Numbered from the stretch's first letter, positions 6,426 through 59,952 are shown. The stretch is 64,000 nt of DNA from Candidatus Daviesbacteria bacterium RIFCSPLOWO2_01_FULL_39_23 (GCA_001776935.1 MFDN01000001.1:165449-229448); one strand, 5' to 3'. Made by a program: numbers and translations. Notes: generated from the sequence alone by a model not told the origin.

Positions 6426-6430
6426 TTTAA

Positions 6431-7760: not shown

Positions 7761-7800
7761 AATTTGTAAAATGTAATAGATTCAAATTATAATAATTGAT
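7761..7800. promoter_or_regulatory. Divergent intergenic region with a promoter-like TTGTAA-N18-TATAAT element reading into the NeuB-like operon.
   Basis: ttgtaaaatgtaatagattcaaattataat lies 7 nt upstream of the 7801 ATG. This is a 40-nt gap between divergently transcribed operons. I see no clear Shine-Dalgarno sequence. Confidence 0.25.
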
Positions 7801-10743: not shown

Positions 10744-10744
10744 T

Positions 10745-11401: not shown

Positions 11402-11402
11402 C

Positions 11403-28074: not shown

Positions 28075-28088
28075 ATCTGTTTGCTAGA

Positions 28089-41638: not shown

Positions 41639-43354
41639 TCAATCCCTCTTGATATAAAAAAGATTCCCGTTAATTTTTTCAACATCTTTTTCGTTTGCAA
41701 AGAGAGTAACAAACCCTACAATTTGAGGCTTAAGCTCTTTAATAAAATAATATTGATTAAATTTTACTATATCAATTTTTCTCTGTCTAAGTTCATCTGT
41801 AAATTCTGCAATTTGTTGGTTTTCTATATATTTATTGATCGTATTAGCTAAAGAAAGGTTTTCCGGTAAGTCATAACCGCTGTAACCGTTAACCAAATAA
41901 CAGCCATGATATGTTGATGATAGTTCTGTGACAGTGATGTATCTTAGCCCTTCAATTACATTAGGGTATGCATCAAGGTGAGTAAGAGGCAGTTCCAGAA
42001 GCACTTTCTTTTTTTGAGAGCATGTGTTTCTTAGAAGTTCATAATCATTGTTAATATAAGAGTCTTTTACGGTTTTGATATTGAGTGGTAGATATTCTAA
42101 AATGAAAAGTATAGACACAGAAAATAAAAGTAATCTACCATAGGGTTTTTGTCCCAGTTTATTGAGAGATATTAAAGAAAAATAGGTAAAACCAAGAAAG
42201 AAAAGGAAACTCCAGCGGCTGAGCACTCTTGTTGCTTCTGCAACTGGAATAAATTCAAGTACAGCGCTATAAGGAAGAGGAATATGAGCATAATTTCCAT
42301 TAAATTTTAATCTTGGTCCTAAAGAAAATAAAAAGCCTGCAATAATTAATATAAGAAAAAATGCTTTTTCCCGAGTAAGCTCCAAACTTATGGTGGTAAG
42401 GCTTTTACTCTTTGAGATTTTAAATAAAGCAAATATAGCTAAAATGAATATTAGAAAACCCGGAAATGAGGAATGAGTACCAGAGTTTTTATCTAACCTA
42501 TTCCATTTTTGCATAAGAGATGAGTTGTGAACAAAGGAATTTATAGGCGACGTAAATATGTAATCACTTAAGTTAGCAGAGTAGGTAATATATTCTTTAA
42601 TATCACGCTTAATGTTATAGAATTTTTTCATGTCCGCATAACCTTTAATGAATATTCCTCCGGTGATTAGGAAAACAAAAAAAATAATAAAAAGTTTAGA
42701 AAGTATTGGTTTGAATTGTTTGTTCGACAGGTACTTTAAAAGATAGAAGATCAAAAGAGAAAAAATTAAATATACAGATAAATATACACTCGCAAGGAAT
42801 TGAATTGTTAAAAGTAGTCCGGCAGAGATGAGGTTTTTTGTTTGACGTTTTTCTTCATTTCTAAAGACAAAATAAAGTGTAAAGAAGAAAGGCCAATACG
42901 ATATCATCTGGAAGTGAGATAACTCCATTTGAAAAAAGGGTGAAAAAATGACGAATATGCTGCCAAAAAAAGCAATTGAATCTTTTTTAAAAAGTTGCTT
43001 CCAAAATAAAAATAGTGAAATATAATTAAGAATAAAACTAATGATAAATACCAAATTAAAGCTTAAGATTATATTTTTTGTTAAATATAAAATTGGCCAT
43101 AATACTAAAGACTGAGGTAGTAAGAGATCGCTAAAAAGGAGTGTTAATCTATGGGGATAGAATGCGTTTGTTTCAAAGAAGTTAGCAAAATCCAACGTAT
43201 TTACATGCGTAATATTTTGGAATATTGTCCAGATAATGAAAGGATAATCCCGCCAGTCTAATAGATTGGTTGATAAGTTTAAAACTAAGTCTTTGAAAAC
43301 GAAGAGCAGAACCAGTAGAAATAAAATGAAATAGAAAGCATTTTTTTTTGACAT
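41639..43354 (-). CDS. Polytopic membrane protein with a C-terminal soluble domain, GT-C-like putative glycosyltransferase.
   Basis: 571 aa. More than 10 TM helices are followed by a soluble C-terminal tail of about 170 aa. Confidence 0.4.
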   Translation of the reverse strand: MSKKNAFYFILFLLVLLFVFKDLVLNLSTNLLDWRDYPFIIWTIFQNITHVNTLDFANFFETNAFYPHRLTLLFSDLLLPQSLVLWPILYLTKNIILSFNLVFIISFILNYISLFLFWKQLFKKDSIAFFGSIFVIFSPFFQMELSHFQMISYWPFFFTLYFVFRNEEKRQTKNLISAGLLLTIQFLASVYLSVYLIFSLLIFYLLKYLSNKQFKPILSKLFIIFFVFLITGGIFIKGYADMKKFYNIKRDIKEYITYSANLSDYIFTSPINSFVHNSSLMQKWNRLDKNSGTHSSFPGFLIFILAIFALFKISKSKSLTTISLELTREKAFFLILIIAGFLFSLGPRLKFNGNYAHIPLPYSAVLEFIPVAEATRVLSRWSFLFFLGFTYFSLISLNKLGQKPYGRLLLFSVSILFILEYLPLNIKTVKDSYINNDYELLRNTCSQKKKVLLELPLTHLDAYPNVIEGLRYITVTELSSTYHGCYLVNGYSGYDLPENLSLANTINKYIENQQIAEFTDELRQRKIDIVKFNQYYFIKELKPQIVGFVTLFANEKDVEKINGNLFYIKRD

Positions 43355-43373
43355 CTAAATTTCAATATAAAAA

Positions 43374-44105
43374 CTAGCTTCTAAGTAAATTAAACTTAAA
43401 TATTTCCCAGAGAGCTTTTGCACCATCTTTCCAACTGATTTTTTTACCTTCGGCATAAGTTCTGCCTGAATAGGAAATACCTACTTCGTAAATCTTGAGC
43501 CCTTTAATTTTTGCAACTCTTGCTGTTATTTCCGGTTCAAACCCAAATCTTTTGCTTTCTAATTTTGGTGCAATAGTCCGAATGACCTCACCTTTAAAAG
43601 CTTTGTATCCGGTTTCCATATCTGACAAATTTAGATTTGTGAGCATATTGGAATAGGTGGTAAGAAATATATTCATTACAGAATGCCAAAAATATAAAAC
43701 TCTATGAGGTCGGTTAGAGATGAACCTGGAGCCATAAACAACGTCAGCATCATTTTTTGAAAAAGGCTCAAGAAGAATAGAGTAATCGTCAGGGTTATAT
43801 TCCAAGTCAGCATCCTGAACTAATACAATGTTTCCGGTCGAAAGTTGAAATCCGTCTTTTAGGGCGGCTCCTTTTCCTGCGTTTACTTTTTTAAAGTAAG
43901 TTTTAAAAATAATATTTTTGTATTTAGACTTAAGACTAAGAATGCTTTTTTCAATAGATTGCCGGGTGTTGTCTTTGGATCCATCGTCTACGATAATAAT
44001 CTCTTTATCAAAAGAAGGCGTGGTAGACTTGCAAACAGCCAATAATGTTTTTTCGATAAAATCCTCCTCGTTAAAAATTGGAATAACGATCGATAATGTC
44101 TTCAT
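43374..44105 (-). CDS. GT2 polyprenyl-phosphate sugar synthase, soluble DPM1/Ppm1-like.
   Basis: LSIVIPIFNEEDFI, VDDGSKDNT, and a DADLEYNPDD (DxD) motif. 243 aa with no TM tail. Confidence 0.75.
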   Translation of the reverse strand: MKTLSIVIPIFNEEDFIEKTLLAVCKSTTPSFDKEIIIVDDGSKDNTRQSIEKSILSLKSKYKNIIFKTYFKKVNAGKGAALKDGFQLSTGNIVLVQDADLEYNPDDYSILLEPFSKNDADVVYGSRFISNRPHRVLYFWHSVMNIFLTTYSNMLTNLNLSDMETGYKAFKGEVIRTIAPKLESKRFGFEPEITARVAKIKGLKIYEVGISYSGRTYAEGKKISWKDGAKALWEIFKFNLLRS

Positions 44106-44171
44106 CTAGTATAAAGTTATAACACAAATAGCTGTGTTTTAAAATACTTTACCAACTGTTATGATGTATCG

Positions 44172-45836
44172 GTGAGCATATTTAATTCAAAAAGAATTAC
44201 GATAATTTCCGGCATTTTTATTGCATTATTATATCTGCTGTTAATTTTTAAAGATCCTTTTTCTCAGAGAACCTTAATTCCGAATTTTGAACCACATCCT
44301 GATACCTTCCATTATATTAATCCTGCCCTTAATTTCACAAAAAGAGAGGGCTTTGTTATTGGCAGAGAGGGAAGAGTAATTAAGCCAAGCGTGCCGCCTT
44401 TTTATTCAATAAGTTTAATTCCTGTATTTCTTATTAAATCAGACCCCAGAATGTCTTACTATTCCAATACAGTTTTAGCACTAGTTTCTCTACTTTTCTT
44501 TTGGTTAATCCTAAAGAGAATATTTGTCAATAAATTAATCCTCTATTTGCTATTAATTCTTTATATTACAAATTACTTTATTTATTGGGTTCCAACACTT
44601 GTTATGGCAGAAAATCTTACATTAACTTTATATCTTGCTGCTATTTTCTTTCTCTTATCCAAAACAACGAAAGTAAATAATTTACTGATGGCTGTTCTGG
44701 TAGTGGGTCTCTATGCTACAAAATATGCCAATATTGCTACCAGCATTTCATTAATTTTTCTTTTTTTTGGGAAAGTTTTTTTTGGTAATTTAACAACAAA
44801 TCAAAAGATTAAACAGATGTTCTCAAATCTGATATTTTTAATCGTTTTCTTCCTTGCGTTGGGGATTTTTGAAGGATTTACTCAGGGAAATAATATCTTT
44901 TCTCAGATTTTGGGACATCTAGACTCGATTTATAAGAGCGTTCCCAAAAGTGATATACCATTGTCAAAAACAGCAGTTACTTCTTCCTGGTTTGGGGTTG
45001 GATATATCAGGGATAATCTGCCGTTATACATAAATTCATTATTGGGTATGCCAAATAAATTTTTATGGGATAATACACCAATAATTCCCAAGTTTATAGG
45101 AATAACCGGGGTTATCGGGATATTTGCCAGTATTACCCGAAAAAATTTTAGCATGTTTTCTTTAGCGCTTTTTCTTTCTGTTTTTTCCTCAGTTATATTT
45201 ATGTCCACATTTTATTCTTTTGATGCAAGGTATATCTATATAGCAATACCTGCATTGATTTTTGGTTTTGGACTTTTTTTAACATCTGTTGAAAACAGGA
45301 TATCTATGGAAAAGAAATTCATTTTTAAAAGTTTAATTTTTCTTTTTTTAATTTTCTACCTTGTAACTAACTTTGTGAGAATAAAAAGCCAGATTAGTTT
45401 AAACTTAAAGTATGCAGAGACTCCCTGGTACTATATTTCAATATTGAAATCAAATGAATATTTTACAAAAGACACGGTAATAAACGGCAAAAAGCCAATC
45501 CTAATCTCTGCTCTGCCGCCGTATTTGGTAGATTATTATACTAACGGTAATTACACGCTGTTGCCGCTATCTTATGGGCAGGAATTTAGAGATTTGGAAC
45601 TCCGCCAGCTAGTTTGGGGACCAAATGATTATTCGAATTTGCCAAAATTATATAAGAAATACCTTAGTGAGGGGTATAGTGTATATGTTTCCAGAGCGGG
45701 CCTGGGGAACGAGGGGTATACGAACAGGGATTTTAATAAAATAGTGGAAGAATTTAATACAGATCTTGTCTTATCAGGTTGTTTTGATCAATGTAATATA
45801 TATTCCGTGAAACTAAAAGAAAAAGATGGCCAGTAG
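44172..45836 (+). CDS. Polytopic membrane protein with a long first extracytoplasmic loop and a C-terminal soluble domain, GT-C-like.
   Basis: 554 aa. An N-terminal TM helix is followed by a first loop of about 50 aa and then multiple TM helices. The C-terminal tail of about 150 aa is soluble. Confidence 0.45.
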   Translation: MSIFNSKRITIISGIFIALLYLLLIFKDPFSQRTLIPNFEPHPDTFHYINPALNFTKREGFVIGREGRVIKPSVPPFYSISLIPVFLIKSDPRMSYYSNTVLALVSLLFFWLILKRIFVNKLILYLLLILYITNYFIYWVPTLVMAENLTLTLYLAAIFFLLSKTTKVNNLLMAVLVVGLYATKYANIATSISLIFLFFGKVFFGNLTTNQKIKQMFSNLIFLIVFFLALGIFEGFTQGNNIFSQILGHLDSIYKSVPKSDIPLSKTAVTSSWFGVGYIRDNLPLYINSLLGMPNKFLWDNTPIIPKFIGITGVIGIFASITRKNFSMFSLALFLSVFSSVIFMSTFYSFDARYIYIAIPALIFGFGLFLTSVENRISMEKKFIFKSLIFLFLIFYLVTNFVRIKSQISLNLKYAETPWYYISILKSNEYFTKDTVINGKKPILISALPPYLVDYYTNGNYTLLPLSYGQEFRDLELRQLVWGPNDYSNLPKLYKKYLSEGYSVYVSRAGLGNEGYTNRDFNKIVEEFNTDLVLSGCFDQCNIYSVKLKEKDGQ

Positions 45837-46977
45837 GTTTTTGAGGCGATTTGATTTAATGGGTATTTTTATTCTATGGCGTTTACTGCTTTTTATTCCG
45901 CTGGTAGCCGCGGCGTATTTGATTCCTCTTAATCCTCCAGTTCCAGTTTCTTATGTATATAATTTTAAAAACTTTGGCTTATCTTTTAATTCGGTTTTTC
46001 TATTTCCATGGGCTAATTTTGACGGCATTCATTATTTTAATATTGCCGAATTCGGATATACAAATCAGGCAAGGTTTTTTCCGCTATTTCCAATCCTAAT
46101 CAAGCTATTGAGCACCAACGTTATAGCAAGTCTTTTGTTAGTTAGCATATTGTTTTTATTAGCGTTATTCATTTTTAAAAGACTGATAGAAATTGATTTT
46201 CCTAAAAGTGTTTCAAAAAAAGTGTTAATACTTCTTTTAATATTCCCTACTTCCTTTTTCTTTGTCAGCATTTATTCAGAAGGACTATTTTTATTTTTAA
46301 CATTGCTTGTTTTTTATTTTGCCCGGAAGAAAATGTGGCTTTTTTCCATTTCTTGCGCATTGCTGCTTACGGCTACAAGGTTTGTAGGAATTGCAATTTT
46401 GCCGGCCCTGCTTTATGAGTATTTTGTAAGCGGAAAGATTGTTTTTACAAAAAAGAACATCTTTATGCTAATTAAGAAGCTTACGCCTTTTTTGATTGTC
46501 CCGGCAGGACTAATATTTTATTCGCTTTTTAATTTGTATGAATGGAATAATTTATTTTATTTTATTCAAGCGCAGGGCGAGCTGGGCAACAGCCGCTCTG
46601 TTTCGGGAATTGTACTTTTTCCTCAAACTGTTTTCAGGTATTTTAAAATTTTAACATCTGTGCCGGCAAACTCTTATGATTGGATGATTGCTCTGCTTGA
46701 GCTTATATCTTTTTTGTTTACAGCTTTTATGTTGTATTTTGCATGGAAGAAAAAACTGCGTAGAAGCTATTTGATATTTGCATTTATAAACTTTGCAATT
46801 ACCATATCAACAGGTACTTTTTCCGGTTTGCCACGGTATATTATTACAATATTTCCAATTTTTATGGCTCTTGCTTTGCTTAAAAATAAGATTTTAAAGC
46901 TAAGCTATATAATTATTTCGCCTATTTTGCTTTTTATATTGCTGATGCTATTTTCAAGAGGGTATTTTGTGGCATAA
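45826..46977 (+). CDS. Integral membrane protein, PIG-V/PimE-like (GT-C-related) mannosyltransferase-like.
   Basis: 383 aa, entirely polytopic. The segment WANFDGIHYFNIAEFGY...RFFPLFP resembles the PIG-V/GT87-type first-loop region. Assignment is tentative. Confidence 0.35.
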   Translation: MASRFLRRFDLMGIFILWRLLLFIPLVAAAYLIPLNPPVPVSYVYNFKNFGLSFNSVFLFPWANFDGIHYFNIAEFGYTNQARFFPLFPILIKLLSTNVIASLLLVSILFLLALFIFKRLIEIDFPKSVSKKVLILLLIFPTSFFFVSIYSEGLFLFLTLLVFYFARKKMWLFSISCALLLTATRFVGIAILPALLYEYFVSGKIVFTKKNIFMLIKKLTPFLIVPAGLIFYSLFNLYEWNNLFYFIQAQGELGNSRSVSGIVLFPQTVFRYFKILTSVPANSYDWMIALLELISFLFTAFMLYFAWKKKLRRSYLIFAFINFAITISTGTFSGLPRYIITIFPIFMALALLKNKILKLSYIIISPILLFILLMLFSRGYFVA

Positions 46978-48367
46978 ACTTAAATATATGATTTGGTTGA
47001 TACTATTTTTAGCATTGTTTTTTAGATTTATTAATTTAAATCAGAGTCTTTGGTGGGATGAGGCTATAAATGTTGTTTATGCTCAAACTTCAGATTTTTG
47101 GTGGTTTATTACAAAATATCCGGTTGGTGACTTTCATCCGCCCGGTTGGTTTGCCATTCTCTGGGTATGGGGACACCTTTTTGGCTTTTCAGAAATTATG
47201 GTCAGGATGCCATCGGTTATTTTGGGAGCAGCTACTGTGGGACTTACATTTCTTTTGGGGAAAGAACTTTTTAACAGAAGGGTAGGCTTTTTGTCAGCAT
47301 TCCTTTTGGCGATTGCCCCGCTTCATGTTTACTATTCACAGGAAGCAAGGATGTATGTGCTGGCTGCTTTTAGCGTAACGCTTTCCTTTTATTTTCTAAA
47401 TAGGCTTATTTTACAGAAAAAATGGGCAGGGTTGGGATTTATAGCTAGCCTTGTGTTGGTTCTATCTTCTGATTACCTGGCATATTTTGCCATACCGGCG
47501 CAGGTAATTTGTCTTGCCTGGGTTAACAAGCTGCGAAAAAACGTTTTGGTCAGCTTATTGGCTGCCGGCTTAATTTTTCTTCCTTGGTTTGCTATTTTCC
47601 CCAATCAGCTTAAAACAGGTATTAATGCTGCAATTAGTTTGCCCGGATGGGCAAATGTAGTTGGCAGCAACTTTAAAGATTTAATCCTCTTTCCTATAAA
47701 GACCTTTTATGGCCGGATTACTATTTCAAACGAGCTTCTTTACGCAGCAGCTGCAGGCATTGCCGGAATAATATTTGCTAGCATATTTTTTTATGGCCTT
47801 AAGAAGAGAGACGATGCAACAAAGCTTTTGATAAGCTGGATTTTTGTCCCTGCGATACTAGCCCTTTTGGTTTCTATTTTCATTCCGGTTTTGGCATATT
47901 TTAGAATGATCTTTATTCTGCCGGCATTTTATTTATTTTTAGCAAAGAGCTTAATAAGTTTGCCTAATAAGATTACTGTAGCAGCTACCACTTTAATCTG
48001 TTTAATTTCGTTTGCCTCATTATTTGGGTATTACATAAACCCAAAATTTCAAAGGGAAGATTGGAGAGGGGCAATCAGTTTTGTTTCAAAAGAGGTGGAT
48101 AGCCAGGCATTAGTTATTTTTGAGAATAATGAAATTCCTGCGCCTGTTAGATATTATGCCAATGATTTGTCCGGTTTTAAACCTGGGTTATCGGATAATT
48201 TAACCGGTGATTTGGCAGATAAAAATAAAGTCTACTTTTTTGAATATTTAGCAGATGTGTATGATCCTAAAAGAGGAGTTGAGCAAAAGATTAAAAGCCT
48301 TAATTTTACCGAGAAAGAAACTTATGATTTTGATGGAGTTGGATTTGTGAGATTCTATACTAGATAA
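46967..48367 (+). CDS. ArnT/PMT-family GT-C glycosyltransferase (GT39/GT83-like, polyprenyl-phosphate-sugar dependent).
   Basis: A first-loop acidic motif (LWWDEAINVVYAQT) lies in the position of the PMT/ArnT DE motif, followed by RMPSVILGAATVGLTFLLGKELF and HVYYSQEARMY. The TM core of about 330 aa plus a soluble tail of about 130 aa is the classic architecture. Confidence 0.7.
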   Translation: MWHKLKYMIWLILFLALFFRFINLNQSLWWDEAINVVYAQTSDFWWFITKYPVGDFHPPGWFAILWVWGHLFGFSEIMVRMPSVILGAATVGLTFLLGKELFNRRVGFLSAFLLAIAPLHVYYSQEARMYVLAAFSVTLSFYFLNRLILQKKWAGLGFIASLVLVLSSDYLAYFAIPAQVICLAWVNKLRKNVLVSLLAAGLIFLPWFAIFPNQLKTGINAAISLPGWANVVGSNFKDLILFPIKTFYGRITISNELLYAAAAGIAGIIFASIFFYGLKKRDDATKLLISWIFVPAILALLVSIFIPVLAYFRMIFILPAFYLFLAKSLISLPNKITVAATTLICLISFASLFGYYINPKFQREDWRGAISFVSKEVDSQALVIFENNEIPAPVRYYANDLSGFKPGLSDNLTGDLADKNKVYFFEYLADVYDPKRGVEQKIKSLNFTEKETYDFDGVGFVRFYTR

Positions 48368-48369
48368 AT

Positions 48370-51455: not shown

Positions 51456-51645
51456 AAACGGCTTCTATGATTAGCAGTAACTATTTTCCGAGAAAGGGGA
51501 TTGTTATTTTTGTTTTAATATTGTTTGTTTTATTTATTCTACAATTTATTTCATCAAAATTTTTTCCTTTAATTTGATGTTTTAGGAGGAAGCTATTTGC
51601 ATACTTGGGGGTGCGGACCGATCTTTTTGTACCCACAGATTTTAA

Positions 51646-53526: not shown

Positions 53527-53528
53527 TT

Positions 53529-54578
53529 ATGATGCGAGTAGGATTTGATATATCACAATTAGCTCATCAGGGAGGAGTTGGGGTTTATACCCAAAATTTA
53601 GCTGAACAATTATCTAAAATAGCCGATTTGGAAATGGTTTATTTCTACTCCTCTTTGCGTAAACCCTACAAAGGAAAGCTGAAAAATGTTAAGTCTTACC
53701 GCCTGCCTCCTACGCTTTTTGAAATGCTTTTTAACAGATGGAGGAATGTATCAATTGAAAAATTTTTAGGTCCGCTTGATGTTTTTCATTCTTCTGATTG
53801 GACCGAACCCCCAAGTAAAGCAAAAAAAGTAACCACAGTGCATGATTTAAGTCCTTTAAAATTTCCCCGCTGGTCGCATCCTAAGATAGTAAGTGTTCAT
53901 AAAAGAAAGCTTAAGTTGATTGAAGAAGAAACAGATTGTGTTATTGCTGTGTCAGAGTCTACGAAGCGTGATCTGCTGGAAATCTCCAAAATTCCTGAAA
54001 GTAAAATAACTGTTATTTATGAGGGGGCGTCTTTTTCGGATAACGACGTCTTTTCGGAAGATGCCCGTTTTGCAGGGGAGGCTTTGGAACCCAAGATTAG
54101 GGGATTTAAAGAAAAATATAATTTGCCTCAAAACTTTATTCTGGCAATCGGCGGGGTGGGAGAACGAAAGAATTTGAAGAGAATTGAGCAATCCTGCAAA
54201 GATTATAATTTAGTTATATTAGGACAGACACTTCCCCGCTTGAGCATGGAGGAGTTAAAGCTGCTTTACAGCAGCGCAAGCGTGCTTGTGTATGCCTCAC
54301 TTTATGAGGGGTTTGGTTTGCCTATACTGGATTCATTTGCATCCGGCCTTCCGGTGATAACTTCAAACGTTTCTTCTATGCCTGAAATAGGAGGAGAGGC
54401 AGCCTTGTATGCTGATCCATTAAGCGTAGAAGATATTAAGGAAAAAATTGATTCGGTTTTAGGAGATAAAAATTTAAGAGAAGAGCTGATAGAAAAAGGT
54501 TTTAAGCGGGTAAAGCAATTTTCCTGGGAAAAATGCGCGGAAGAAACTGCAAAAGTTTACAGGAGGATTATGAAATGA
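53529..54578 (+). CDS. GT4-family (GT-B) glycosyltransferase.
   Basis: E-x7-E region ASLYEGFGLPILDSFASGLPVI. The ORF track start at 53433 overlaps the upstream gene. The in-frame ATG at 53529 (MMRVGFDISQL) is the likelier start. Confidence 0.8.
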   Translation: MMRVGFDISQLAHQGGVGVYTQNLAEQLSKIADLEMVYFYSSLRKPYKGKLKNVKSYRLPPTLFEMLFNRWRNVSIEKFLGPLDVFHSSDWTEPPSKAKKVTTVHDLSPLKFPRWSHPKIVSVHKRKLKLIEEETDCVIAVSESTKRDLLEISKIPESKITVIYEGASFSDNDVFSEDARFAGEALEPKIRGFKEKYNLPQNFILAIGGVGERKNLKRIEQSCKDYNLVILGQTLPRLSMEELKLLYSSASVLVYASLYEGFGLPILDSFASGLPVITSNVSSMPEIGGEAALYADPLSVEDIKEKIDSVLGDKNLREELIEKGFKRVKQFSWEKCAEETAKVYRRIMK

Positions 54579-55762
54579 GGTTTTGGATTGACGGGTATGA
54601 AGCGAATGTACCTCAAAGGCTTGGATCGTCACAGGTAGCATTTGAGCTGCTTACCCAATTTGAGAGAATTGATAAAAAAAACGAATATACAATATTTTTA
54701 CCAGATCCGCCTTTGTCTGACTTACCAAAAGAAAGAAAAGGGTGGAAGTATAGGGTCTTAAAACCTAAAAGACTTTGGACGCGGATAGCCTTACCTTTTG
54801 CGCTTTATACTGCAAGACAAAAACCTGATTTATTTTTTTCTCCTTCGCACTATCTCCCGAGATTTTTACCCTCGAAGATAAAAAAAGTTGTAGTAATATT
54901 TGATTTGTCTTTTTTACATTTTCCGGAAATGTTTAACAGAGATGATCTTTGGAAATTAAAAAACTGGACAAAATTTTCCGTAAATAATGCAGATTGTATA
55001 GTTACGATTTCTAAATTTTCAAAGGAAGATATTTATAAAGAATACAGTACCCCAAAGAAAAAAATAACTATCGCTTATCCCGGATATGATAAAGAAAAGT
55101 TCAGAGTTCAGAGTTTAGAGTTTAGGGTGGGAGAGGTGAAAAAGAAGTATAACGTAGGGGATAACTACCTTATATATATAGGAACGATACAGCCGAGGAA
55201 AAATATTATAAGGCTGATGGAGGCATTTGGTAATGCAATCCACCTCGAAGGAGTCAAAACTCACCTTCGAGGTGTGCGGGAACGTTCAAAAAATGAGTTG
55301 GAATTGGTGATTGTCGGTAAACATAAGGGTGAGGGGAAACAGGGTTGGAAATATGAAGATATATTAAAATCTCCCCAAAAATTAGGCATAGAAAGCCGCG
55401 TTAAGTTTTTAGGTTTTGTGCCGACAGATGAATTGGCCTTTCTTATATCAGGAGCAACAGCTTTTATCCAGCCTTCGCTTTATGAGGGGTTTGGGATTCC
55501 CGTAGCGGAGGCTATGGCTTGCGGTGTGCCGGTAATTGTTTCTGATGTCTCGTCGTTGCCTGAAGTAGTCGGGCAAGCAGGGCTTTTGGTAAATCCTTAT
55601 TCAGTTGATCAGATGGAGCAGGCGATAAGGACTATAGTAGCTGATAAAAAATTGCGAAAAAAATATTCAAAAGCAGGACTTGAGCGAGTCAAAATGTTCT
55701 CATGGGGTAAAATGGCGAAGGAAGTATTAAAAGTTTTTGACCGTGTGGAAAAGAAGGGGTAA
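54575..55762 (+). CDS. GT4-family (GT-B) glycosyltransferase.
   Basis: E-x7-E region [23 protein letters not shown] canonical AGGAGG sits 8 nt upstream of the ATG at 54575, which overlaps the upstream stop (ATGA). The ORF track start at 54533 is less likely. Confidence 0.8.
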
Positions 55763-55765
55763 TGT

Positions 55766-56404
55766 TTGCTTAATGTGGTCTTTCCCCATATAATTATATC
55801 TATGGCTCTATTTCGGGACAGGATGGGAAGATCTTTAACAACAGCTGAGGCTTCTGTAAAGATTGTGATGAGAGGGTTAAACTGGCTTTTGGATTTTGAG
55901 TTGTTGCTGATCACTTGGGCGGGGCTTATGCCTTTTCATTTGTTTCGTTTGTTTGTATACTCTCTGGCAGGGATTAAGATAGGTAGAGGTTCAAGGATTC
56001 ATATTGGGGCAAGGTTTTTTTATCCGTCTAACATAAAGATCGGAACAGGAACAATTATCGGAGACAATATTTTTTTAGACGGAAGAGATAAGTTAATAAT
56101 AGGCGATCATGTGGATATTGCCTCTGGGGTAATGATTTTAAATTCCGAACATGATATAAACTCGGAAGATTTTCACCCTATTATTGCTCCGGTTATTATT
56201 GGGGATTATGTTTTTATAGGGCCAAGGTCAATTATTCTGCCCGGAGTTAATATCGGAAAAGGAGCTGTGGTAGCTGCTGGAGCTGTGGTTACTAAAGATA
56301 TACCTGATTTTGCGGTAGCGGGGGGAGTTCCGGCACAGATAATAGGGGAGCGCAAGATAAAGGATCCTCATTACCGTTTAGGTCGCGCAAGGCTTTTTCA
56401 ATAA
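55766..56404 (+). CDS. Hexapeptide-repeat (LbH) acetyltransferase with an N-terminal hydrophobic segment, WcaF/CysE-like sugar O-acetyltransferase.
   Basis: Hexapeptide repeats: IGTGTIIGDNIFLDG, IGDHVDIASGVMIL, IGDYVFIGPRSIILPGVNIGKGAVVAAGAVV. There is an N-terminal membrane-associating stretch. Confidence 0.7.
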   Translation: MLNVVFPHIIISMALFRDRMGRSLTTAEASVKIVMRGLNWLLDFELLLITWAGLMPFHLFRLFVYSLAGIKIGRGSRIHIGARFFYPSNIKIGTGTIIGDNIFLDGRDKLIIGDHVDIASGVMILNSEHDINSEDFHPIIAPVIIGDYVFIGPRSIILPGVNIGKGAVVAAGAVVTKDIPDFAVAGGVPAQIIGERKIKDPHYRLGRARLFQ

Positions 56405-56508
56405 ATTCAAATGTCAAAGCTCAAATGGCAAATCAAATCTAAAGTCTTAATGTTAAATAATTAAACATTGATTCTTTAGTCATAGGACATTCATTTGTAA
56501 TTTGGATT

Positions 56509-57084
56509 TTGACATTATTTAGTAGAATCGTGAGTATGATTAAAAGAATTTTCATTTTATTTTCTATATTACTTCTTATTTATATGATTTGGCCGGGGCC
56601 AAACAAAATTTCACAGTTTAAACCATTGCCTAATTCAACAAAATCTACGCTTTCGGGCGATACATTTCAAATTCCCAATGTGGCTGCTTATTTTTCCAAT
56701 AATTTCAGGGATTTTGTGATCCCTTTCTATTTTAAAAATTACCAAGGAGTTTCCCGCTTGCCGTTTCCGCCGCTCGTATTAAACCATCCTCCCGAATACT
56801 CTTGGGTAGTGATAAATGTGAATACAGATACAACATACCTAGAAGAATTCGTATACCCATTAAGGGACTCACTGTTTGTAAATGGTTTTGAAACTTACCG
56901 CCCTGATGGGACTCCGGTTTTTTGGGGTGCACCAGAGCTTACGGAATCAACAAAGTCTTGGTATACAAAAACAAAATTGAGATATTATCCAAGTAATATT
57001 TTGGTTAGGAGCTTAGTTTGGTTTGGAATAGTTGTTTCGATTCTAGCAATTTATAGATTAGGGAGGAAAATAGCCAAAGAATGA
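56509..57084 (+). CDS. Hypothetical bitopic membrane protein (N- and C-terminal TM helices).
   Basis: 191 aa with hydrophobic termini and a Pro/aromatic-rich central domain. No family is recognised. Confidence 0.3.
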   Translation: MTLFSRIVSMIKRIFILFSILLLIYMIWPGPNKISQFKPLPNSTKSTLSGDTFQIPNVAAYFSNNFRDFVIPFYFKNYQGVSRLPFPPLVLNHPPEYSWVVINVNTDTTYLEEFVYPLRDSLFVNGFETYRPDGTPVFWGAPELTESTKSWYTKTKLRYYPSNILVRSLVWFGIVVSILAIYRLGRKIAKE

Positions 57085-58484
57085 ATAAAGCGCTTTTTTA
57101 CTTAACTTTATTTCTTTTTGCTTTTATTCCCCTTTACCCTAAGTTCCCGCTTTTTAACATTAAAGGTACCTTTGTAGCGGTAAGAATCGAAGATTTTCTA
57201 ATTGCCTTAACTATTGGGTTATGGATATCTTACATATTGATTAATAAAAAATTATCCGTTGTTTTAAAGGATAATACTAATAAGGCAATATTGCTATTTT
57301 TCTCAATCGGCATATTATCCCTCTTTTCAGCGCTGTTTTTAACGCACTCGATTACGCCGCATATAGGGGTACTGCATTTTCTCAGAAGGGTGGAATTAAT
57401 TTTTCTTTTGCCTGTTGTTGTGACAATTTTTAATACAAAGAAAAGATTGATTTCTGTATTAATTGTTTTATTCTTAACCCTGATAGTAACTAACTTATAT
57501 GGATTAGGACAGCAATATTTGGACTGGCCGGTTATATCTACAACAAATTCTGAATTTGCCAAAGGTTTAATATTAAGGCTCACTCCGGGTGCAAGGGTAA
57601 ATTCTACTTTTGCCGGGCATTACGATTTTGCAGTGTTTTTATCGGCTGCCATTGTTTTTCTTGCAGCATTATTTTTTGCATTAAATAAGTTTTGGAAAAT
57701 GCCGATATTAATTTTAGGCGGTCTTTCCCTTTTTGTATTAATACTGACAGCTGCAAGGGTATCGTTTGTATCGATTTTTGTCGGTTTAATCTTTGCACTA
57801 ATTTTTGCCAAAAAGAAAAAATATCTGTTATTGGTTATTGTTGCGCTTACATTAATTGCTGTTTATCCATCTCAGCTTAGGGATAGATTTATTTCAACAA
57901 TAACAGTCAATCTGCTTAATACAGGTAAAAGATATGAAGGTAGGAACGTAAACCAACAGCTGGAAAATAAATTAAATATTCCTACTTTAGCTTATAAAAT
58001 GGCAAGCCGTTCGGCAAATTTCCCAGCTTTCTCCGCTACTGCTGCCGGTGTGCCGGCTGATATAGCTCCCGGTGAACCGGTTGACGGGACACAGTTAGGC
58101 GTTTATAGGTCATTTCAAATAAGGTTAAATATAGAGTGGCCAAGAGCCGTAAGGGCCTTTCTAAAAAATCCCTTTTTGGGTACAGGGTATTCATCAATAG
58201 GAATTGCTACCGATAATGACTTTTTAAGGTCTCTGGGAGAGGTGGGGCTTTTGGGGACGATTGCATTTTCTTTGATACTAATTTCTATCTGGAAAAAGAT
58301 ATCTCAAGGAGTAAAAAGCGGAGATAAGATAATCAGATTTTTTTCTGCAGGTTCACTTGCTGCAATAATTGTCTTTTTGGTAAACGGTTTATTTATTGAT
58401 GTATTTGAGGCATCAAAAGTAGCATCTCTTTTTTGGATGATATTAGGATTAAATTTAGCTGTTTTAAATCTTAAGGAAGAATAG
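57081..58484 (+). CDS. O-antigen ligase / polymerase family membrane protein (Wzy_C domain; WaaL/PglL/Wzy-like).
   Basis: 467 aa and polytopic. LTAARVSFVSIFVGLIF matches the Wzy_C TxxR core. A large extracytoplasmic loop near the C-terminus follows the motif. Confidence 0.6.
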   Translation: MNKALFYLTLFLFAFIPLYPKFPLFNIKGTFVAVRIEDFLIALTIGLWISYILINKKLSVVLKDNTNKAILLFFSIGILSLFSALFLTHSITPHIGVLHFLRRVELIFLLPVVVTIFNTKKRLISVLIVLFLTLIVTNLYGLGQQYLDWPVISTTNSEFAKGLILRLTPGARVNSTFAGHYDFAVFLSAAIVFLAALFFALNKFWKMPILILGGLSLFVLILTAARVSFVSIFVGLIFALIFAKKKKYLLLVIVALTLIAVYPSQLRDRFISTITVNLLNTGKRYEGRNVNQQLENKLNIPTLAYKMASRSANFPAFSATAAGVPADIAPGEPVDGTQLGVYRSFQIRLNIEWPRAVRAFLKNPFLGTGYSSIGIATDNDFLRSLGEVGLLGTIAFSLILISIWKKISQGVKSGDKIIRFFSAGSLAAIIVFLVNGLFIDVFEASKVASLFWMILGLNLAVLNLKEE

Positions 58485-59942
58485 ATGAGAGTGTTAAAAA
58501 TTTTTACAAGTCAATATTTTTGGTTACTGCTTATAGTTTTTTTTGGTCTTTTAGCGCGGCTTTATAAGATTGATTCCCCTATTGCTGATTGGCATTCCTG
58601 GAGACAGGCGGACACCGCGGCAGTCACCAGGAATTTTGTTAAAGAAGGTTTTAATCCTTTTATACCAAAATATGATGATATGTCCGGAGTTTCGGAAAAG
58701 CCTCTTGTTAATCCTAATACTTTCAGGTTTGTGGAATTTCCAATATATAATATAGCAACATATCCTTTTTATTTGCTTTTTGGAGTAGAAGATAGATTTT
58801 CCCGTTTAGTGTCTGTTCTGTTTTCTCTGGGAAGTATTGTTTTTCTATACCTGATAAGTAAAAGATATTTTGGGACTTTTGTATCACTTTTGACAGCGTT
58901 AATTTATGCTTTGTTGCCGTTTAATGTTTTTTTCTCAAGAACAATCTTGCCTGAACCTACTTTTTTGTTTTTTGCGCTGGGGATGATGTATTTTGTTGAT
59001 TTGTGGATTGGAAGCGGTAAAGGAGTTTGGGGAGTGTGGGGATTTATTTTTACTGCTTTAGCTTTTTTGATGAAACCATGGGCAATATTTTTTATACCCC
59101 CTATTTTATATTCTCTTTTTTCAAAATATGGCTTTAAAATTCCACATAAGTTTTTTCTGCTTATTTTAGCAATTGCGCCTTTTATATTTTGGAGGCTTTG
59201 GATTCTGCAGCAGCCGCAGGGCATACCTGCTTCAAGCTGGCTTATGAATTCGGATAATATCCGTTTTAGACCGGCCTTTTGGTGGTGGTTAATTTCGGAA
59301 AGGCTGGGAAGAGAAATTTTAGCTGTGCCGGGAGTGGTGCTTTTTGTTGTCGGATTATTAACAAAGCCCAAAAAAAGCTTTTTTATGCATGTTTGGCTTC
59401 TTTCGATGTTTTCATATTTTATAATTTTTGCAACCGGCAATATAAGGCATAATTATTACCAGTATATTTTTGTTCCGGTGGCGGCTGTTTTTTTCACTTT
59501 GGGATTTGTTAAATTAATTTCGGGAATCAGGGACTTTTTGCCAAGAATATGGACAATACCGTTGGCGTTTTTCTTTTTGATTTTGGCATTTTACTTTACC
59601 TGGTACCAGGTAAAGGGGTTTTATCAAATCAATAATCCGGTTATAATTGAGGCAGGCAAAGCGGCAGACAAGCTTTTGCCCAAGGATGCTGTTGTGGTGG
59701 CCCCATATAACGGCGATACTGCTTTTTTGTATCAGACAAACAGAAAAGGATGGCCGGTGACAGCCCTGCCTTTAAAAGAGCTGGCAACGGATTATGGTGC
59801 CACTCATTTTGTTTCCACCACGCATGATGATAAAACGAATTGGGTGATCCGCCACTTTCAGGTTTTAGAAAATAATCCCGGCTTTGTTATTGCTGATTTA
59901 ACAAAAGTTGTGAACTCTCTGGAAGGCGACCCGGAACCATAA
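58485..59942 (+). CDS. GT-C-like polytopic membrane glycosyltransferase with a C-terminal soluble domain.
   Basis: 485 aa. The first loop after TM1 carries HSWRQADTAAVTRNF. About 11 TM helices are followed by a soluble tail of about 110 aa. Confidence 0.5.
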   Translation: MRVLKIFTSQYFWLLLIVFFGLLARLYKIDSPIADWHSWRQADTAAVTRNFVKEGFNPFIPKYDDMSGVSEKPLVNPNTFRFVEFPIYNIATYPFYLLFGVEDRFSRLVSVLFSLGSIVFLYLISKRYFGTFVSLLTALIYALLPFNVFFSRTILPEPTFLFFALGMMYFVDLWIGSGKGVWGVWGFIFTALAFLMKPWAIFFIPPILYSLFSKYGFKIPHKFFLLILAIAPFIFWRLWILQQPQGIPASSWLMNSDNIRFRPAFWWWLISERLGREILAVPGVVLFVVGLLTKPKKSFFMHVWLLSMFSYFIIFATGNIRHNYYQYIFVPVAAVFFTLGFVKLISGIRDFLPRIWTIPLAFFFLILAFYFTWYQVKGFYQINNPVIIEAGKAADKLLPKDAVVVAPYNGDTAFLYQTNRKGWPVTALPLKELATDYGATHFVSTTHDDKTNWVIRHFQVLENNPGFVIADLTKVVNSLEGDPEP

Positions 59943-59952
59943 AGCTTTAATC

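What the first reader, a model, noticed from the sequence alone, without database searches (positions are those of the whole stretch)
41639..59942. Dense array of at least ten GT-C-fold-like polytopic membrane proteins with two DPM1-like polyprenyl-phosphate sugar synthases.
Eleven large membrane proteins (383-692 aa), most with a polytopic TM core followed by a soluble extracytoplasmic tail, lie in this window. They sit at 22418, 30692, 41639, 44172, 45826, 46967, 48370, 49890, 51646, 57081 and 58485. One is recognisably ArnT/PMT-like (WWDE first-loop motif), one Wzy_C-like and one PIG-V/PimE-like. The ORF at 51646 has the reverse layout, with an exported N-terminal domain and a C-terminal TM region.

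They are interleaved with two GT2 polyprenyl-phosphate sugar synthases, a membrane GtrB-type at 16784 and a soluble DPM1-type at 43374. Those enzymes make the lipid-linked monosaccharide donors that GT-C enzymes use. Six GT4 and three GT2 cytoplasmic glycosyltransferases are also present.

This predicts extensive periplasmic or extracytoplasmic glycan elaboration on a lipid-linked intermediate or on proteins, far beyond a typical O-antigen or capsule locus. Most of these membrane proteins match no family I can name, so several may be new GT-C families.
Basis: partly seen in the sequence, partly recalled or inferred. Interest (0 to 1): 0.7.

Follow-up and report, generated by a model that had tools for sequence, protein, structure and literature searches.

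The report
GT-C glycosyltransferase array in a Daviesbacterium
A tiny-genome groundwater bacterium (Candidatus Daviesbacteria) packs nine membrane-embedded GT-C sugar-transferases and two lipid-sugar donor synthases into 64 kb. Seven of the transferases lie in a gene cluster conserved across its relatives, which points to an elaborate surface glycan built on the outer face of the membrane.

Summary
All eleven ORFs exist at the stated coordinates and are polytopic membrane proteins.

- **Two exceptions.** 57081 is a Wzy_C polymerase/ligase-type protein. 51646 is not GT-C: it has an exported DUF3863 glycoside-hydrolase/deacetylase-fold domain followed by six TM helices.
- **Donor synthases.** 43374 has no TM helix and best matches Pyrococcus Dol-P-Man synthase. 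16784 is ArnC/GtrB-type. Both fit polyprenyl-phosphate-sugar synthases.
- **Source and conservation.** The window comes from a groundwater Candidatus Daviesbacteria genome. The run 43374 to 63271 is colinear in many Daviesbacteria at 45-79% identity and borders the cell-division/wall (dcw) genes. It is a conserved envelope locus, not a strain-variable island.
- **Fusions elsewhere.** GT2 is fused to 44172-like proteins, and the DUF3863 domain to 30692-like proteins.
- **Mechanism.** It is the known GT2 plus GT-C transmembrane glycosylation scheme at unusual scale, with two GT-C families lacking any Pfam or NCBIfam hit. Donor sugar and acceptor remain unknown.

I rate it a new variant of a known kind, of moderate interest.

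The parts
41639..43354 (-). GT-C(A)-fold glycosyltransferase, 571 aa, from a family found here only in CPR genome records and unnamed metagenome contigs, with no Pfam or NCBIfam hit. It lies directly downstream of GT2 43374 on the same strand. Invariant D36 and near-invariant D33 sit after TM1, and there is a C-terminal extracytoplasmic alpha/beta domain.
43374..44105 (-). TM-less GT2, 243 aa, a DPM1/Ppm1/PpgS-like putative polyprenyl-phosphate-sugar synthase.
   Evidence: Pfam Glycos_transf_2 scores 110.9 bits. The best PDB match is Pyrococcus Dol-P-Man synthase 5mlz, E 3.8e-13 over the whole catalytic domain, followed among lipid-sugar synthases by GtrB-type sll0501 and ArnC; chondroitin synthase also ranks second over the N-terminal half. 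The nearest NCBIfam models are AglJ, PgfS, ArnC and PpgS, all below equivalog cut-offs. No TM segment was found. It is 62-79% identical in syntenic loci.
44172..45836 (+). GT-C-like membrane protein, 554 aa, with no Pfam or NCBIfam hit. It is transcribed divergently from 43374. Invariant P43-D44 (PDTFHY) follows TM1. In other lineages this family is fused behind a GT2 domain.
   Evidence: The family has 391 representatives. GT2 fusions are P0345, P0352, P0357, P0367, P0383 and P0386. hhalign gives 93.8% to 58485 and 90.4% to 41639. D44 aligns with D33 of 41639.
45826..46977 (+). Small GT-C-like protein, 383 aa, PIG-V/PimE-like, with conserved D66 and H69 (FDGIHY).
   Evidence: Pfam Mannosyl_trans2 scores 17.0 bits, below the cut-off of 22.4. 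The orthologue carries a precomputed PF04188 hit. hhalign to 58485 is 73%. UniRef names it RgtA/B/C/D-like.
46967..48367 (+). PMT_2 (GT39/GT83-like) GT-C, 466 aa, with the WWDE motif; W29, D31 and E32 are invariant.
   Evidence: PMT_2 scores 47.9 bits against 26.1. The motif is shown and the invariants. NCBIfam gives weak Agl23, STT3 and mannosyltransferase hits.
48370..49893 (+). PMT_2 GT-C, 507 aa, paralogue of 49890, with conserved D36 and D40.
   Evidence: PMT_2 scores 31.8 bits. phmmer to 49890 gives E 6e-16.
49890..51455 (+). PMT_2 GT-C, 521 aa, with conserved D35 and D39.
   Evidence: PMT_2 scores 31.5 bits. hhalign gives 98.8% to 48370 and 96.1% to 46967.
51646..53526 (+). Not GT-C. 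It has an N-terminal anchor helix, an exported DUF3863-type (beta/alpha)-barrel domain of the glycoside-hydrolase/deacetylase superfamily (about 41-390), and a six-helix C-terminal membrane region with a beta-sheet insert.
53529..55762 (+). Two GT4 cytoplasmic glycosyltransferases.
   Evidence: Pfam Glycos_transf_1 and Glyco_transf_4. Both are syntenic. NCBIfam hits are generic only.
55766..56404 (+). Hexapeptide-repeat (WcaF-like) sugar acetyltransferase.
56509..57084 (+). Conserved 191-aa protein with one TM at each end and no family hit. Its stop overlaps the start of the Wzy_C gene.
57081..58484 (+). Wzy_C-domain protein, of the O-antigen polymerase / ligase / O-oligosaccharyltransferase type.
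   Evidence: Pfam Wzy_C scores 36.3 bits against 31.7. It has no profile link to the GT-C(A) network. UniRef names it 'O-antigen polymerase'.
58485..59942 (+). PMT_2/GT39-like GT-C, 485 aa, with conserved D35, D43, D64 and D65.
   Evidence: PMT_2 scores 58.9 bits. UniRef names it 'Glycosyl transferase family 39'.
59953..63271 (+). Three GT4 cytoplasmic glycosyltransferases.
   Evidence: All are syntenic.
63271..63915 (+). Small Bac_transf polyprenyl-phosphate phosphoglycosyltransferase, the initiating enzyme.
   Evidence: Pfam Bac_transf scores 204 bits. NCBIfam places it with WbaP/EPS sugar transferases. It is followed by DUF4012, recO, a tRNA synthetase gene, an unannotated ORF and then the dcw genes.
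22418..24496 (+). GT-C-like protein, 692 aa, with a large C-terminal ectodomain, in the part of the window that is not syntenic.
   Evidence: Pfam PMT scores 22.1 bits against 22.7. hhalign gives 92.2% to 46967 and 90.2% to 44172 over 322 columns. UniRef names it RgtA/B/C/D-like.
30692..32641 (+). GT-C-like protein, 649 aa, with roughly four extra N-terminal TM helices before the core and an invariant D143.
   Evidence: There is no Pfam hit. Alignment A3 is. hhalign gives 95.8% to 41639 over 366 columns, and 92.4% and 91% to 46967 and 49890. UniRef names it RgtA/B/C/D-like.
16784..17740 (-). GtrB/ArnC-type GT2 with two C-terminal TM helices, a putative polyprenyl-phosphate-sugar synthase.
   Evidence: Pfam GT2 scores 103.6 bits. 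NCBIfam ArnC scores 177 bits and PgfS 146 bits, both full length but below equivalog cut-offs. TM segments lie at 235-300.

Best explanation
The finding is the GT-C-rich half of a cell-envelope glycan locus of a Candidatus Daviesbacteria (CPR/Microgenomates) genome.

**Shown**
- Nine window proteins are GT-C(A)-type polytopic proteins with conserved acidic residues in the first outward-facing loop. GT-C fold was tested directly only for 41639.
- Two GT2 enzymes resemble polyprenyl-phosphate-monosaccharide synthases.
- The run from 43374 to the Bac_transf gene at 63271 is conserved and colinear across Daviesbacteria.

**Inferred mechanism**
1. The phosphoglycosyltransferase 63271, five GT4 enzymes and an acetyltransferase build a polyprenyl-diphosphate-linked oligosaccharide on the cytoplasmic face.
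2. That intermediate is exported. Candidate exporters elsewhere in the window are the Wzx-like 17870 and the ABC-2 pair at 37021-38566.
3. The Wzy_C protein 57081 polymerises or ligates it.
4. In parallel, the TM-less GT2 43374 charges polyprenyl phosphate with a single sugar from a nucleotide sugar. In the variable half of the window, the GtrB-type 16784 does the same.
5. After translocation, the seven conserved GT-C enzymes (41639, 44172, 45826, 46967, 48370, 49890, 58485) each transfer that sugar to a different position of the growing glycan outside the membrane. This resembles the GT-C series that build mycobacterial lipomannan and arabinan, or the luminal ALG enzymes of the ER.
6. The 51646 ectodomain then trims, transglycosylates or otherwise remodels the product.

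22418 and 30692, together with 16784, would add strain-specific decorations.
For: - **Pfam.** PMT_2 is above threshold for four proteins. PMT is near threshold for 22418.
- **Profile links.** A profile-profile network links all nine at 73-99% probability, with the N-terminal cores aligned in register for most links.
- **Catalytic-site features.** Acidic residues after TM1 are conserved in every family, and N-termini carry K/R before TM1, so that loop faces outward.
- **Synthases.** 43374 best matches Dol-P-Man synthase 5mlz, followed among lipid-sugar synthases by GtrB-type sll0501 and ArnC. The nearest NCBIfam models (AglJ, PgfS, ArnC, PpgS, Dol-P-hexose transferase) are all lipid-phosphate-sugar synthases.
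- **Gene linkage.** 43374 shares a strand with 41639 and is divergent to 44172. Six independent cluster representatives fuse a GT2 to a 44172-like protein. One of them sits among alternating GT2 and PMT genes.
- **Conservation.** The locus is colinear at 45-79% identity in L005-L012, L014, L016, L021, L030, L031 and L036, and partly so in Woesebacteria and Levybacteria.
- **Neighbourhood.** The locus sits a few genes from the dcw cell-wall genes.
- **Known mechanism.** The general GT2 plus GT-C scheme is reviewed in PMC8035078.
Against: - No biochemical data exist. Neither the donor sugar nor the acceptor can be read from sequence.
- Only one GT-C-like protein (41639) was tested by structure. 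The others rest on Pfam, profile-profile comparison and motifs, and hhalign between membrane proteins can be inflated by shared hydrophobic composition.
- Profiles of 41639, 44172, 30692, 46967 and 57081 found no solved structure by sequence.
- No GtrA-like small flippase is encoded in the window.
- No Wzx gene lies inside the conserved part.
- 43374 and 16784 score below every NCBIfam equivalog cut-off.
Confidence: 0.7

Rival explanations
1. Protein O-glycosylation machinery. The PMT_2/GT39-like enzymes transfer single sugars from polyprenyl-phosphate-sugar to Ser/Thr of secreted proteins such as S-layer protein or pilins, as actinobacterial Pmt does. The Wzy_C protein acts as a PglL/PilO-type O-oligosaccharyltransferase that moves the Und-PP-linked oligosaccharide onto proteins. 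The product would then be a glycoprotein, not a polysaccharide or lipoglycan.
For: The Pfam families hit are protein-mannosyltransferase families (PMT_2, PMT). 41639 is as similar to the oligosaccharyltransferases AglB, STT3B and PglB as to AftA. The Wzy_C domain is shared by polymerases, ligases and O-oligosaccharyltransferases (established knowledge). The nearest NCBIfam models to 43374 include AglJ and PgfS, both from protein-glycosylation pathways.
Against: Seven different, mutually very divergent GT-C enzymes served by one synthase fit better with several distinct linkages on a glycan than with one protein-mannosylation step. None has a MIR domain or another PMT luminal domain. No candidate acceptor protein gene lies in the conserved cluster.
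Confidence: 0.2
2. A horizontally acquired, strain-variable O-antigen or capsule-type island in which the many membrane proteins are mostly Wzy/EpsG-type polymerases or flippase-associated proteins, not glycosyltransferases.
For: The left 41 kb carries typical variable decoration genes: nonulosonic-acid synthesis, phosphonate synthesis, FkbM methyltransferases, a GT11-like gene, and both Wzx and ABC-2 exporters. This part is not colinear in relatives. 49890 has weak EpsG and repeat-unit-polymerase hits. 46967 weakly hits the 'flippase activity-associated' Agl23 model.
Against: The right half is colinear across genomes at only 45-79% protein identity and sits next to core dcw genes. The 41639 model matches GT-C enzymes, not polymerases or transporters. 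PMT_2 scores exceed the EpsG and polymerase scores by far. GC content is even across the window.
Confidence: 0.07
3. Decoration of a teichoic-acid-like polymer by several independent GtrB-plus-GT-C glycosylation systems, as in Gram-positive bacteria (CsbB/YfhO, GtlA/GtlB, GacI/GacL). Each GT-C would add one side-chain sugar to a phosphodiester-linked wall polymer.
For: The window encodes a TagF/TarF-like glycerophosphotransferase (28089) and a GtrB-type synthase (16784). The review PMC8035078 describes exactly such GT2 plus GT-C systems.
Against: The TagF-like gene sits in the phosphonate cassette of the non-syntenic half, not in the conserved cluster. Only two synthases serve nine GT-C enzymes. 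The conserved cluster has its own Bac_transf, GT4 and Wzy_C backbone genes.
Confidence: 0.1

Closest known systems
Multi-component transmembrane glycosylation systems: GtrA/GtrB/GtrC of enterobacterial phages, CsbB/YfhO, GtlA/GtlB and GacI/GacL of Gram-positive bacteria (review PMC8035078)
   Same: A GT2 enzyme that loads one sugar onto polyprenyl phosphate is paired by gene order with a polytopic GT-C enzyme that uses it outside the membrane. 16784 has the GtrB/ArnC layout with two C-terminal TM helices.
   Different: There are nine GT-C enzymes for two synthases instead of one to one. No GtrA-type flippase gene is in the window. The conserved-cluster synthase 43374 has no TM helix. In some lineages the synthase is fused to the GT-C.
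Corynebacterineae lipomannan / lipoarabinomannan / arabinogalactan assembly: Ppm1 or PpgS plus PimE, MptA-C, EmbA-C, AftA-D
   Same: Series of mutually divergent GT-C enzymes extend one glycan outside the membrane from a single polyprenyl-phosphate-sugar pool. Those pathways use a TM-less synthase (Ppm1 catalytic domain, PpgS) and GT4 enzymes on the cytoplasmic face. The best structural match of 41639 is AftA, with AftD, AftB, PimE and EmbA also hit. 43374 hits the PpgS model.
   Different: Sequence identity to these enzymes is only 7-12%. Here the genes form one compact conserved cluster with a Bac_transf initiator and a Wzy_C protein. The organism is a CPR bacterium with contigs of about 1 Mb. 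No inositol-lipid or decaprenyl-phospho-arabinose genes were seen.
Pfam PMT_2 (PF13231) / CAZy GT39 and GT83 (protein O-mannosyltransferases, ArnT, RgtA-D)
   Same: 46967, 48370, 49890 and 58485 pass the PMT_2 gathering score. A DE or D-x-x-x-D type first-loop motif is conserved.
   Different: 41639, 44172 and 30692 get no hit. 22418 and 45826 fall below threshold in related families. None has the MIR domain of eukaryotic PMTs.
DUF3863 (PDB 3lm3, Parabacteroides BDI_3119) and the CE4 / GH57 / ArnD glycoside-hydrolase/deacetylase fold
   Different: The Pfam score is far below threshold, 13.1 against 27 bits. No conserved histidine is available for a CE4 metal site. The domain is membrane-anchored and followed by six TM helices, or in other lineages fused to a GT-C.

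Membership tests
GT-C superfamily (GT-C(A) fold) | Polytopic N-terminal membrane core with the N-terminus in the cytoplasm | tested here: met
   A hydropathy scan finds 8-10 or more segments in all nine. K/R residues precede TM1. 30692 has about four extra helices in front of the core.
GT-C superfamily (GT-C(A) fold) | Conserved acidic residue(s) in the first extracytoplasmic loop | tested here: met
   41639 D33/D36; 44172 D44; 45826 D66; 46967 D31/E32; 48370 D36/D40; 49890 D35/D39; 58485 D35/D43; 30692 D143. 22418 has D25/D28 in its sequence, but with only four partial homologues conservation was not measured.
GT-C superfamily (GT-C(A) fold) | Three-dimensional fold superposes on solved GT-C enzymes | tested here: met
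GT-C superfamily (GT-C(A) fold) | Uses a polyprenyl-(di)phosphate-linked sugar donor | not testable with these tools
   Only inferred, from adjacency and fusion with GT2 synthase-like genes.
Pfam PMT_2 (PF13231) | Score at or above the gathering threshold of 26.1 bits | tested here: met
   Met for 46967 (47.9), 48370 (31.8), 49890 (31.5) and 58485 (58.9). Not met, with no hit at all, for 41639, 44172, 30692, 45826 and 22418.
PIG-V / Mannosyl_trans2 (PF04188), PimE-like, for 45826 | Score at or above the gathering threshold of 22.4 bits | tested here: not met
   17.0 bits, E 0.0039. An orthologue in L007 has a precomputed PF04188 hit. This is a resemblance, not demonstrated membership.
Polyprenyl-phosphate-sugar synthases of GT2 (DPM1 / GtrB / ArnC / PpgS type) | GT-A catalytic domain most similar to known lipid-phosphate-sugar synthases | tested here: met
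   43374 has 5mlz as its best PDB match, followed among lipid-sugar synthases by sll0501 (GtrB-type) and ArnC; chondroitin synthase also ranks second over the N-terminal half. Its nearest NCBIfam models are AglJ, PgfS, ArnC and PpgS. 16784 matches ArnC at 177 bits and PgfS at 146 bits over full length.
Polyprenyl-phosphate-sugar synthases of GT2 (DPM1 / GtrB / ArnC / PpgS type) | Reaches the curated cut-off of a specific equivalog model | tested here: not met
   All NCBIfam hits are below their cut-offs, so the sugar specificity and exact subfamily are undetermined.
Polyprenyl-phosphate-sugar synthases of GT2 (DPM1 / GtrB / ArnC / PpgS type) | Genomic or physical coupling to a GT-C enzyme | tested here: met
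   The order 43374-41639 on one strand with 44172 divergent is conserved in relatives. GT2-44172 fusion proteins exist.
Three-component Gtr system | GtrA-family small four-helix flippase encoded with the GT2 and GT-C | tested here: not met
   No such ORF is in the window. All gaps over 100 bp were inspected, and the only ORFs there of 128-147 aa are soluble proteins.
Wzy_C (PF04932), for 57081 | Score at or above the gathering threshold; then polymerase versus ligase versus O-oligosaccharyltransferase | tested here: inconclusive
   The domain is present at 36.3 bits against 31.7. The subtype cannot be told: no PDB sequence hit with a family profile and no NCBIfam hit of use.
CE4 polysaccharide deacetylases, for the 51646 ectodomain | Asp-His-His metal-binding triad | tested here: not met
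DUF3863 (PF12979), for the 51646 ectodomain | Sequence score at or above 27 bits, or the fold of 3lm3 | tested here: inconclusive

The most novel reading that the evidence does not exclude
Daviesbacteria and related Microgenomates build a major envelope glycan largely on the outer face of the membrane, using a conserved seven-enzyme GT-C assembly line. This would be a compact CPR counterpart of mycobacterial lipoarabinomannan/arabinogalactan assembly.

The TM-less donor synthase would dock onto a dedicated GT-C partner of the 44172 family, to which it is covalently fused in some lineages. Donor synthesis, translocation and transfer would then be coupled in one complex without a GtrA-type flippase. 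The DUF3863-fold ectodomain protein, fused to a GT-C in other lineages, would be a new glycan-remodelling partner of GT-C enzymes.
Probability: 0.25. Interest if true: 0.7.

Novelty: new variant of a known kind. Interest (0 to 1): 0.5.

Why it matters
CPR bacteria are thought to live attached to other cells, and their envelopes are almost uncharacterised. This lineage has contigs of about 1 Mb, close to whole genomes, yet devotes a conserved cluster of roughly 20 kb to seven GT-C enzymes, one donor synthase, five GT4 enzymes, a Wzy_C protein and a membrane-anchored glycan-remodelling domain, with more in variable flanks. That implies a complex surface glycan central to its biology, plausibly in attachment, host recognition or phage defence.

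Three things are directly testable.
- Two GT-C families without a Pfam or NCBIfam hit (41639 and 44172), for which profile models could now be built.
- A Rosetta-stone fusion that links a TM-less lipid-sugar synthase to a specific GT-C partner, which bears on how lipid-linked sugars cross the membrane.
- A DUF3863-fold domain tied to GT-C enzymes, which gives a first functional context for that domain of unknown function.

Tried and rejected
- **PDB by sequence.** Single sequences 41639 and 44172, and family profiles A1, A2, A3, A4, A5 and A6, found nothing useful. Even the bona fide PMT_2 family gave no hit, so this route is too insensitive for GT-C proteins.
- **DUF6311.** Precomputed Pfam tags PF19830 on many 41639 homologues could not be reproduced with the Pfam copy at hand, even at E up to 10. 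I did not use that name.
- **51646 as a canonical CE4 deacetylase.** Rejected for lack of conserved histidines.
- **Recent tandem duplicates.** Rejected. Only 48370 and 49890 are clear paralogues.
- **Horizontally acquired island.** Rejected for the right half on synteny and even GC.
- **GT4 clues.** An NCBIfam scan of the GT4 genes for PimA/PimB-like or other specific identities gave only generic hits.
- **Literature.** Searches for this cluster in CPR, Microgenomates or Daviesbacteria found nothing specific. They returned only remarks on multiple Dol-P-mannosyltransferase-like genes in Peregrinibacteria and PIM-like genes in a Saccharibacterium.
- **Unavailable resources.** The afdb50 fold library was not available.

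Full report
**Observation**

- A hydropathy scan shows that the eleven large proteins are polytopic, that 43374 has no hydrophobic segment, and that 16784 has two C-terminal ones.
- The WWDE motif is at residues 29-32 of 46967.
- Six GT4 genes are confirmed.
- Only two cytoplasmic GT2 genes (36105, 38681) could be confirmed rather than three. 20489 is GT11-like and 19441 resembles a sugar O-methyltransferase.

**What each membrane protein is**

*Family scans.*
- Pfam places 46967, 48370, 49890 and 58485 in PMT_2 above the gathering score (47.9, 31.8, 31.5 and 58.9 bits against 26.1).
- 57081 falls in Wzy_C (36.3 against 31.7). 22418 is just under the PMT threshold (22.1 against 22.7). 45826 is weakly PIG-V-like (17.0 against 22.4).
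- 41639, 44172, 30692 and 51646 get nothing. NCBIfam adds only weak Agl23, STT3 and mannosyltransferase hits for 46967 and 58485.
- The proteins are not recent duplicates. Only 48370 and 49890 are clear paralogues.

*41639.* I collected homologues and modelled the protein from a 35-sequence alignment, giving pLDDT 88 and pTM 0.89.
- The twenty best hits are all GT-C enzymes or the structurally related PIG-U/GAB1 subunits of GPI transamidase. This is a GT-C(A) fold.

*The profile network.* Family alignments were built from syntenic orthologues and database homologues and compared by hhalign.

| Pair | Probability | Columns |
|---|---|---|
| 48370-49890 | 98.8% | 349 |
| 46967-58485 | 97.2% | 199 |
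| 46967-49890 | 96.1% | 248 |
| 41639-30692 | 95.8% | 366 |
| 44172-58485 | 93.8% | 259 |
| 22418-46967 | 92.2% | 106 |
| 41639-44172 | 90.4% | 255 |
| 22418-44172 | 90.2% | 322 |
| 45826-58485 | 73.3% | 179 |

- 57081 and 51646 have no link to this network.
- Every family keeps acidic residues in the loop after TM1.
- D44 of 44172 aligns with D33 of 41639.
- N-termini carry K/R before TM1, so that loop faces outward.
- UniRef independently names 22418, 30692, 45826, 48370 and 49890 'Glycosyltransferase RgtA/B/C/D-like domain-containing protein' and 58485 'Glycosyl transferase family 39'. 41639 and 51646 are 'uncharacterized'.

The count is therefore nine GT-C(A)-like proteins, one Wzy_C protein and one protein of another kind.

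**51646**

The model has pLDDT 90.5. It shows an N-terminal anchor helix, an alpha/beta ectodomain (about 41-390) and six C-terminal TM helices with a beta-sheet insert.
- The ectodomain has many invariant Asp, Glu, Trp, Tyr and Gln residues but no conserved histidine. It is not a canonical metal-dependent CE4 deacetylase and looks more like a glycan-binding or glycan-cleaving domain.
- The family is large, with at least 927 homologues. It is found in 78 loci whose informative titles are all Microgenomates-group or broader Patescibacteria/Parcubacteria: Daviesbacteria, Shapirobacteria, Woesebacteria, Levybacteria, Curtissbacteria, Gottesmanbacteria, Chisholmbacteria and WWE3.
- In many of those loci the same ectodomain is the N-terminal half of a protein of about 1,140-1,170 aa whose C-terminal half is 30692-like. 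This ties the domain functionally to GT-C enzymes.

**The GT2 enzymes**

- 43374 matches Pyrococcus Dol-P-Man synthase 5mlz best (E 3.8e-13, residues 4-221 against 25-230), followed among lipid-sugar synthases by the GtrB-type sll0501 and ArnC; chondroitin synthase also ranks second over the N-terminal half.
- Its nearest NCBIfam models are AglJ, PgfS, ArnC, PpgS and a haloarchaeal Dol-P-hexose transferase. All are lipid-phosphate-sugar synthases, and all score below equivalog cut-offs.
- 16784 matches ArnC (177 bits) and PgfS (146 bits) over full length and has the two C-terminal helices of GtrB-type enzymes.
- An exhaustive search with 44172 found 391 cluster representatives. Six of them carry an N-terminal GT2 domain homologous to 43374 and 16784 in front of the 44172-like membrane domain (GT2 confirmed by Pfam for P0357).
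- In the window the two genes are divergently transcribed, so these fusions are real rearrangements and not read-through artefacts.
- The contig of P0357 shows alternating PMT_2, GT2, PMT and GT2-fusion genes.

**Source and conservation**

- Identical proteins occur on groundwater (Rifle aquifer) contigs and in Candidatus Daviesbacteria MAGs, for example GCA_001776655.1, GW2011_GWF2_38_7 and ACD_32.
- In relatives at 45-79% protein identity, the whole run from 43374(-) through 44172, 45826, 46967, 48370, 49890, 51646, two GT4 genes, the acetyltransferase, 56509, Wzy_C and PMT_2 to three GT4 genes and Bac_transf is colinear. These relatives include contigs of 1.02-1.15 Mb. A 41639-like gene sits beside the GT2 in several of these loci, on the opposite strand and far more divergent (32-40% identity) in two of them.
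- Parts of the run persist in Woesebacteria and Levybacteria.
- Some relatives carry further GT-C paralogues after the 51646 gene.
- Thirty-nine loci of at least 19 kb hold a median of 4 and up to 8 GT-C-like ORFs.
- Downstream of the window come DUF4012, recO, a tRNA synthetase gene, an unannotated ORF and then the dcw genes mraZ, rsmH, a PBP gene and a Mur ligase gene.
- The left 41 kb is not colinear in relatives. It carries nonulosonic-acid genes (PseB/PseC-like, NeuB, a hydrolysing epimerase, a CMP-transferase, a formyltransferase) and a phosphonate cassette (PEP mutase fused to a cytidylyltransferase, a decarboxylase, an Fe-ADH, a TagF-like transferase). It also carries FkbM methyltransferases, a GT11-like gene, a Wzx-like flippase, an ABC-2 exporter, 16784, 22418 and 30692.

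**Mechanism**

*Shown:* the fold and family identities, the conserved first-loop acids, the gene order, the fusions and the conservation.

*Inferred:*
1. A cytoplasmic phase builds a polyprenyl-diphosphate-linked oligosaccharide, using the Bac_transf enzyme, five GT4 enzymes and the acetyltransferase.
2. The intermediate is exported, then polymerised or ligated by the Wzy_C protein.
3. In parallel, 43374 makes a polyprenyl-phosphate-monosaccharide. The seven conserved GT-C enzymes use it outside the membrane to add sugars at distinct positions.
4. The 51646 ectodomain remodels the product.
5. In the variable half, 16784 with 22418 and 30692 would add strain-specific decorations.

The donor sugar, the acceptor (lipid-linked glycan, wall polymer or protein) and the translocation step are unknown. 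No GtrA-like gene is in the window.

**Rivals**

- Protein O-glycosylation, with Wzy_C acting as a PglL-like transferase, is the most serious rival and is not excluded.
- A horizontally acquired O-antigen-type island is contradicted for the right half by synteny and even GC content.
- Teichoic-acid side-chain glycosylation is possible for the variable half only.

**Novelty**

- Four literature searches aimed at CPR, Microgenomates, Patescibacteria or Daviesbacteria, plus one on CPR and mannosyltransferases, found no description of this cluster.
- Earlier CPR genome papers only remark on multiple Dol-P-mannosyltransferase-like genes (PMC4736985) or PIM-like genes (PMC6031116).
- The components belong to known superfamilies and the mechanism is of a known kind.
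- What is new: the density and conservation of the GT-C array in a genome of about 1 Mb, two GT-C families with no Pfam or NCBIfam hit (41639, 44172), the synthase-GT-C fusion, and the DUF3863-GT-C link.
- I rate it a new variant of a known kind, with interest 0.5.

**Limits**

- Only two structures could be modelled.
- hhalign between membrane proteins can overstate relatedness.
- PDB sequence searches were uninformative even for true PMT_2 members.
- The afdb50 library was unavailable.

Noticed in passing
P0345, P0352, P0357, P0367, P0383, P0386; locus L090:4721-6967: These proteins of about 730-780 aa have an N-terminal GT2 (DPM1-like) domain fused to a 44172-family membrane domain. On L090 the fusion follows PMT_2, RNase_T, GT2 and PMT genes.
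   Followed up: partly
L068, L070, L071, L073-L078, L080, L081, L084, L086 (e.g. L070:10001-13480); also P0405, P0411, P0412, P0416-P0418: These proteins of about 1,000-1,170 aa join a 51646-like DUF3863-fold ectodomain to a 30692-like GT-C membrane domain. A second stand-alone 30692-like gene often follows.
   Followed up: partly
window 24535-29468: A phosphonate cassette: PEP mutase fused to a cytidylyltransferase, a TPP-dependent decarboxylase, an Fe-alcohol dehydrogenase and a TagF/TarF-like transferase. It suggests a phosphonate-decorated glycan (hydroxyethylphosphonate type) in a CPR bacterium.
   Followed up: no
window 2213-13916: A nonulosonic-acid (pseudaminic/legionaminic-type) gene set: PseB-like 12909, PseC-like 11813, NeuB 7801, hydrolysing 2-epimerase 9589, CMP-transferase 5721, formyltransferase 8847 and PIG-L deacetylase 10745. 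A HisH/HisF-like amidotransferase-cyclase pair lies at 3454-4961.
   Followed up: no
window 56509-57084: A conserved 191-aa protein with one TM helix at each end and no family hit. Its stop overlaps the Wzy_C start, and it is syntenic in all Daviesbacteria loci. It could be a minimal chain-length or polymerase partner.
   Followed up: no
L087-L089:10647-20645 (just beyond the right end of the window): The glycan cluster ends with a 626-aa DUF4012 protein. After recO, a tRNA synthetase gene and an unannotated ORF come the dcw genes (mraZ, rsmH, a PBP gene, a Mur ligase gene).
   Followed up: partly
L005:11851-13092, L007:11823-13307 and similar ORFs in other loci: Relatives carry one more polytopic gene after the 51646 orthologue that is absent from the window. 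The L007 form is a 49890 paralogue (blastp E 1e-12), so the GT-C array expands and contracts between genomes.
   Followed up: partly
record titles of L009, L013-L015, L030-L032 and others: Many 'binchicken' MAG records titled 'uncultured Gammaproteobacteria' carry this Daviesbacteria-type locus at 50-60% identity. The titles look like taxonomic mislabels.
   Followed up: no
homologues of 41639: Precomputed Pfam tags PF19830 on many homologues could not be reproduced with the Pfam copy used here, even at E up to 10.
   Followed up: yes
window 58904-59440 (-): A 178-aa ORF lies antisense inside the PMT_2 gene 58485. It is most likely spurious.
   Followed up: no
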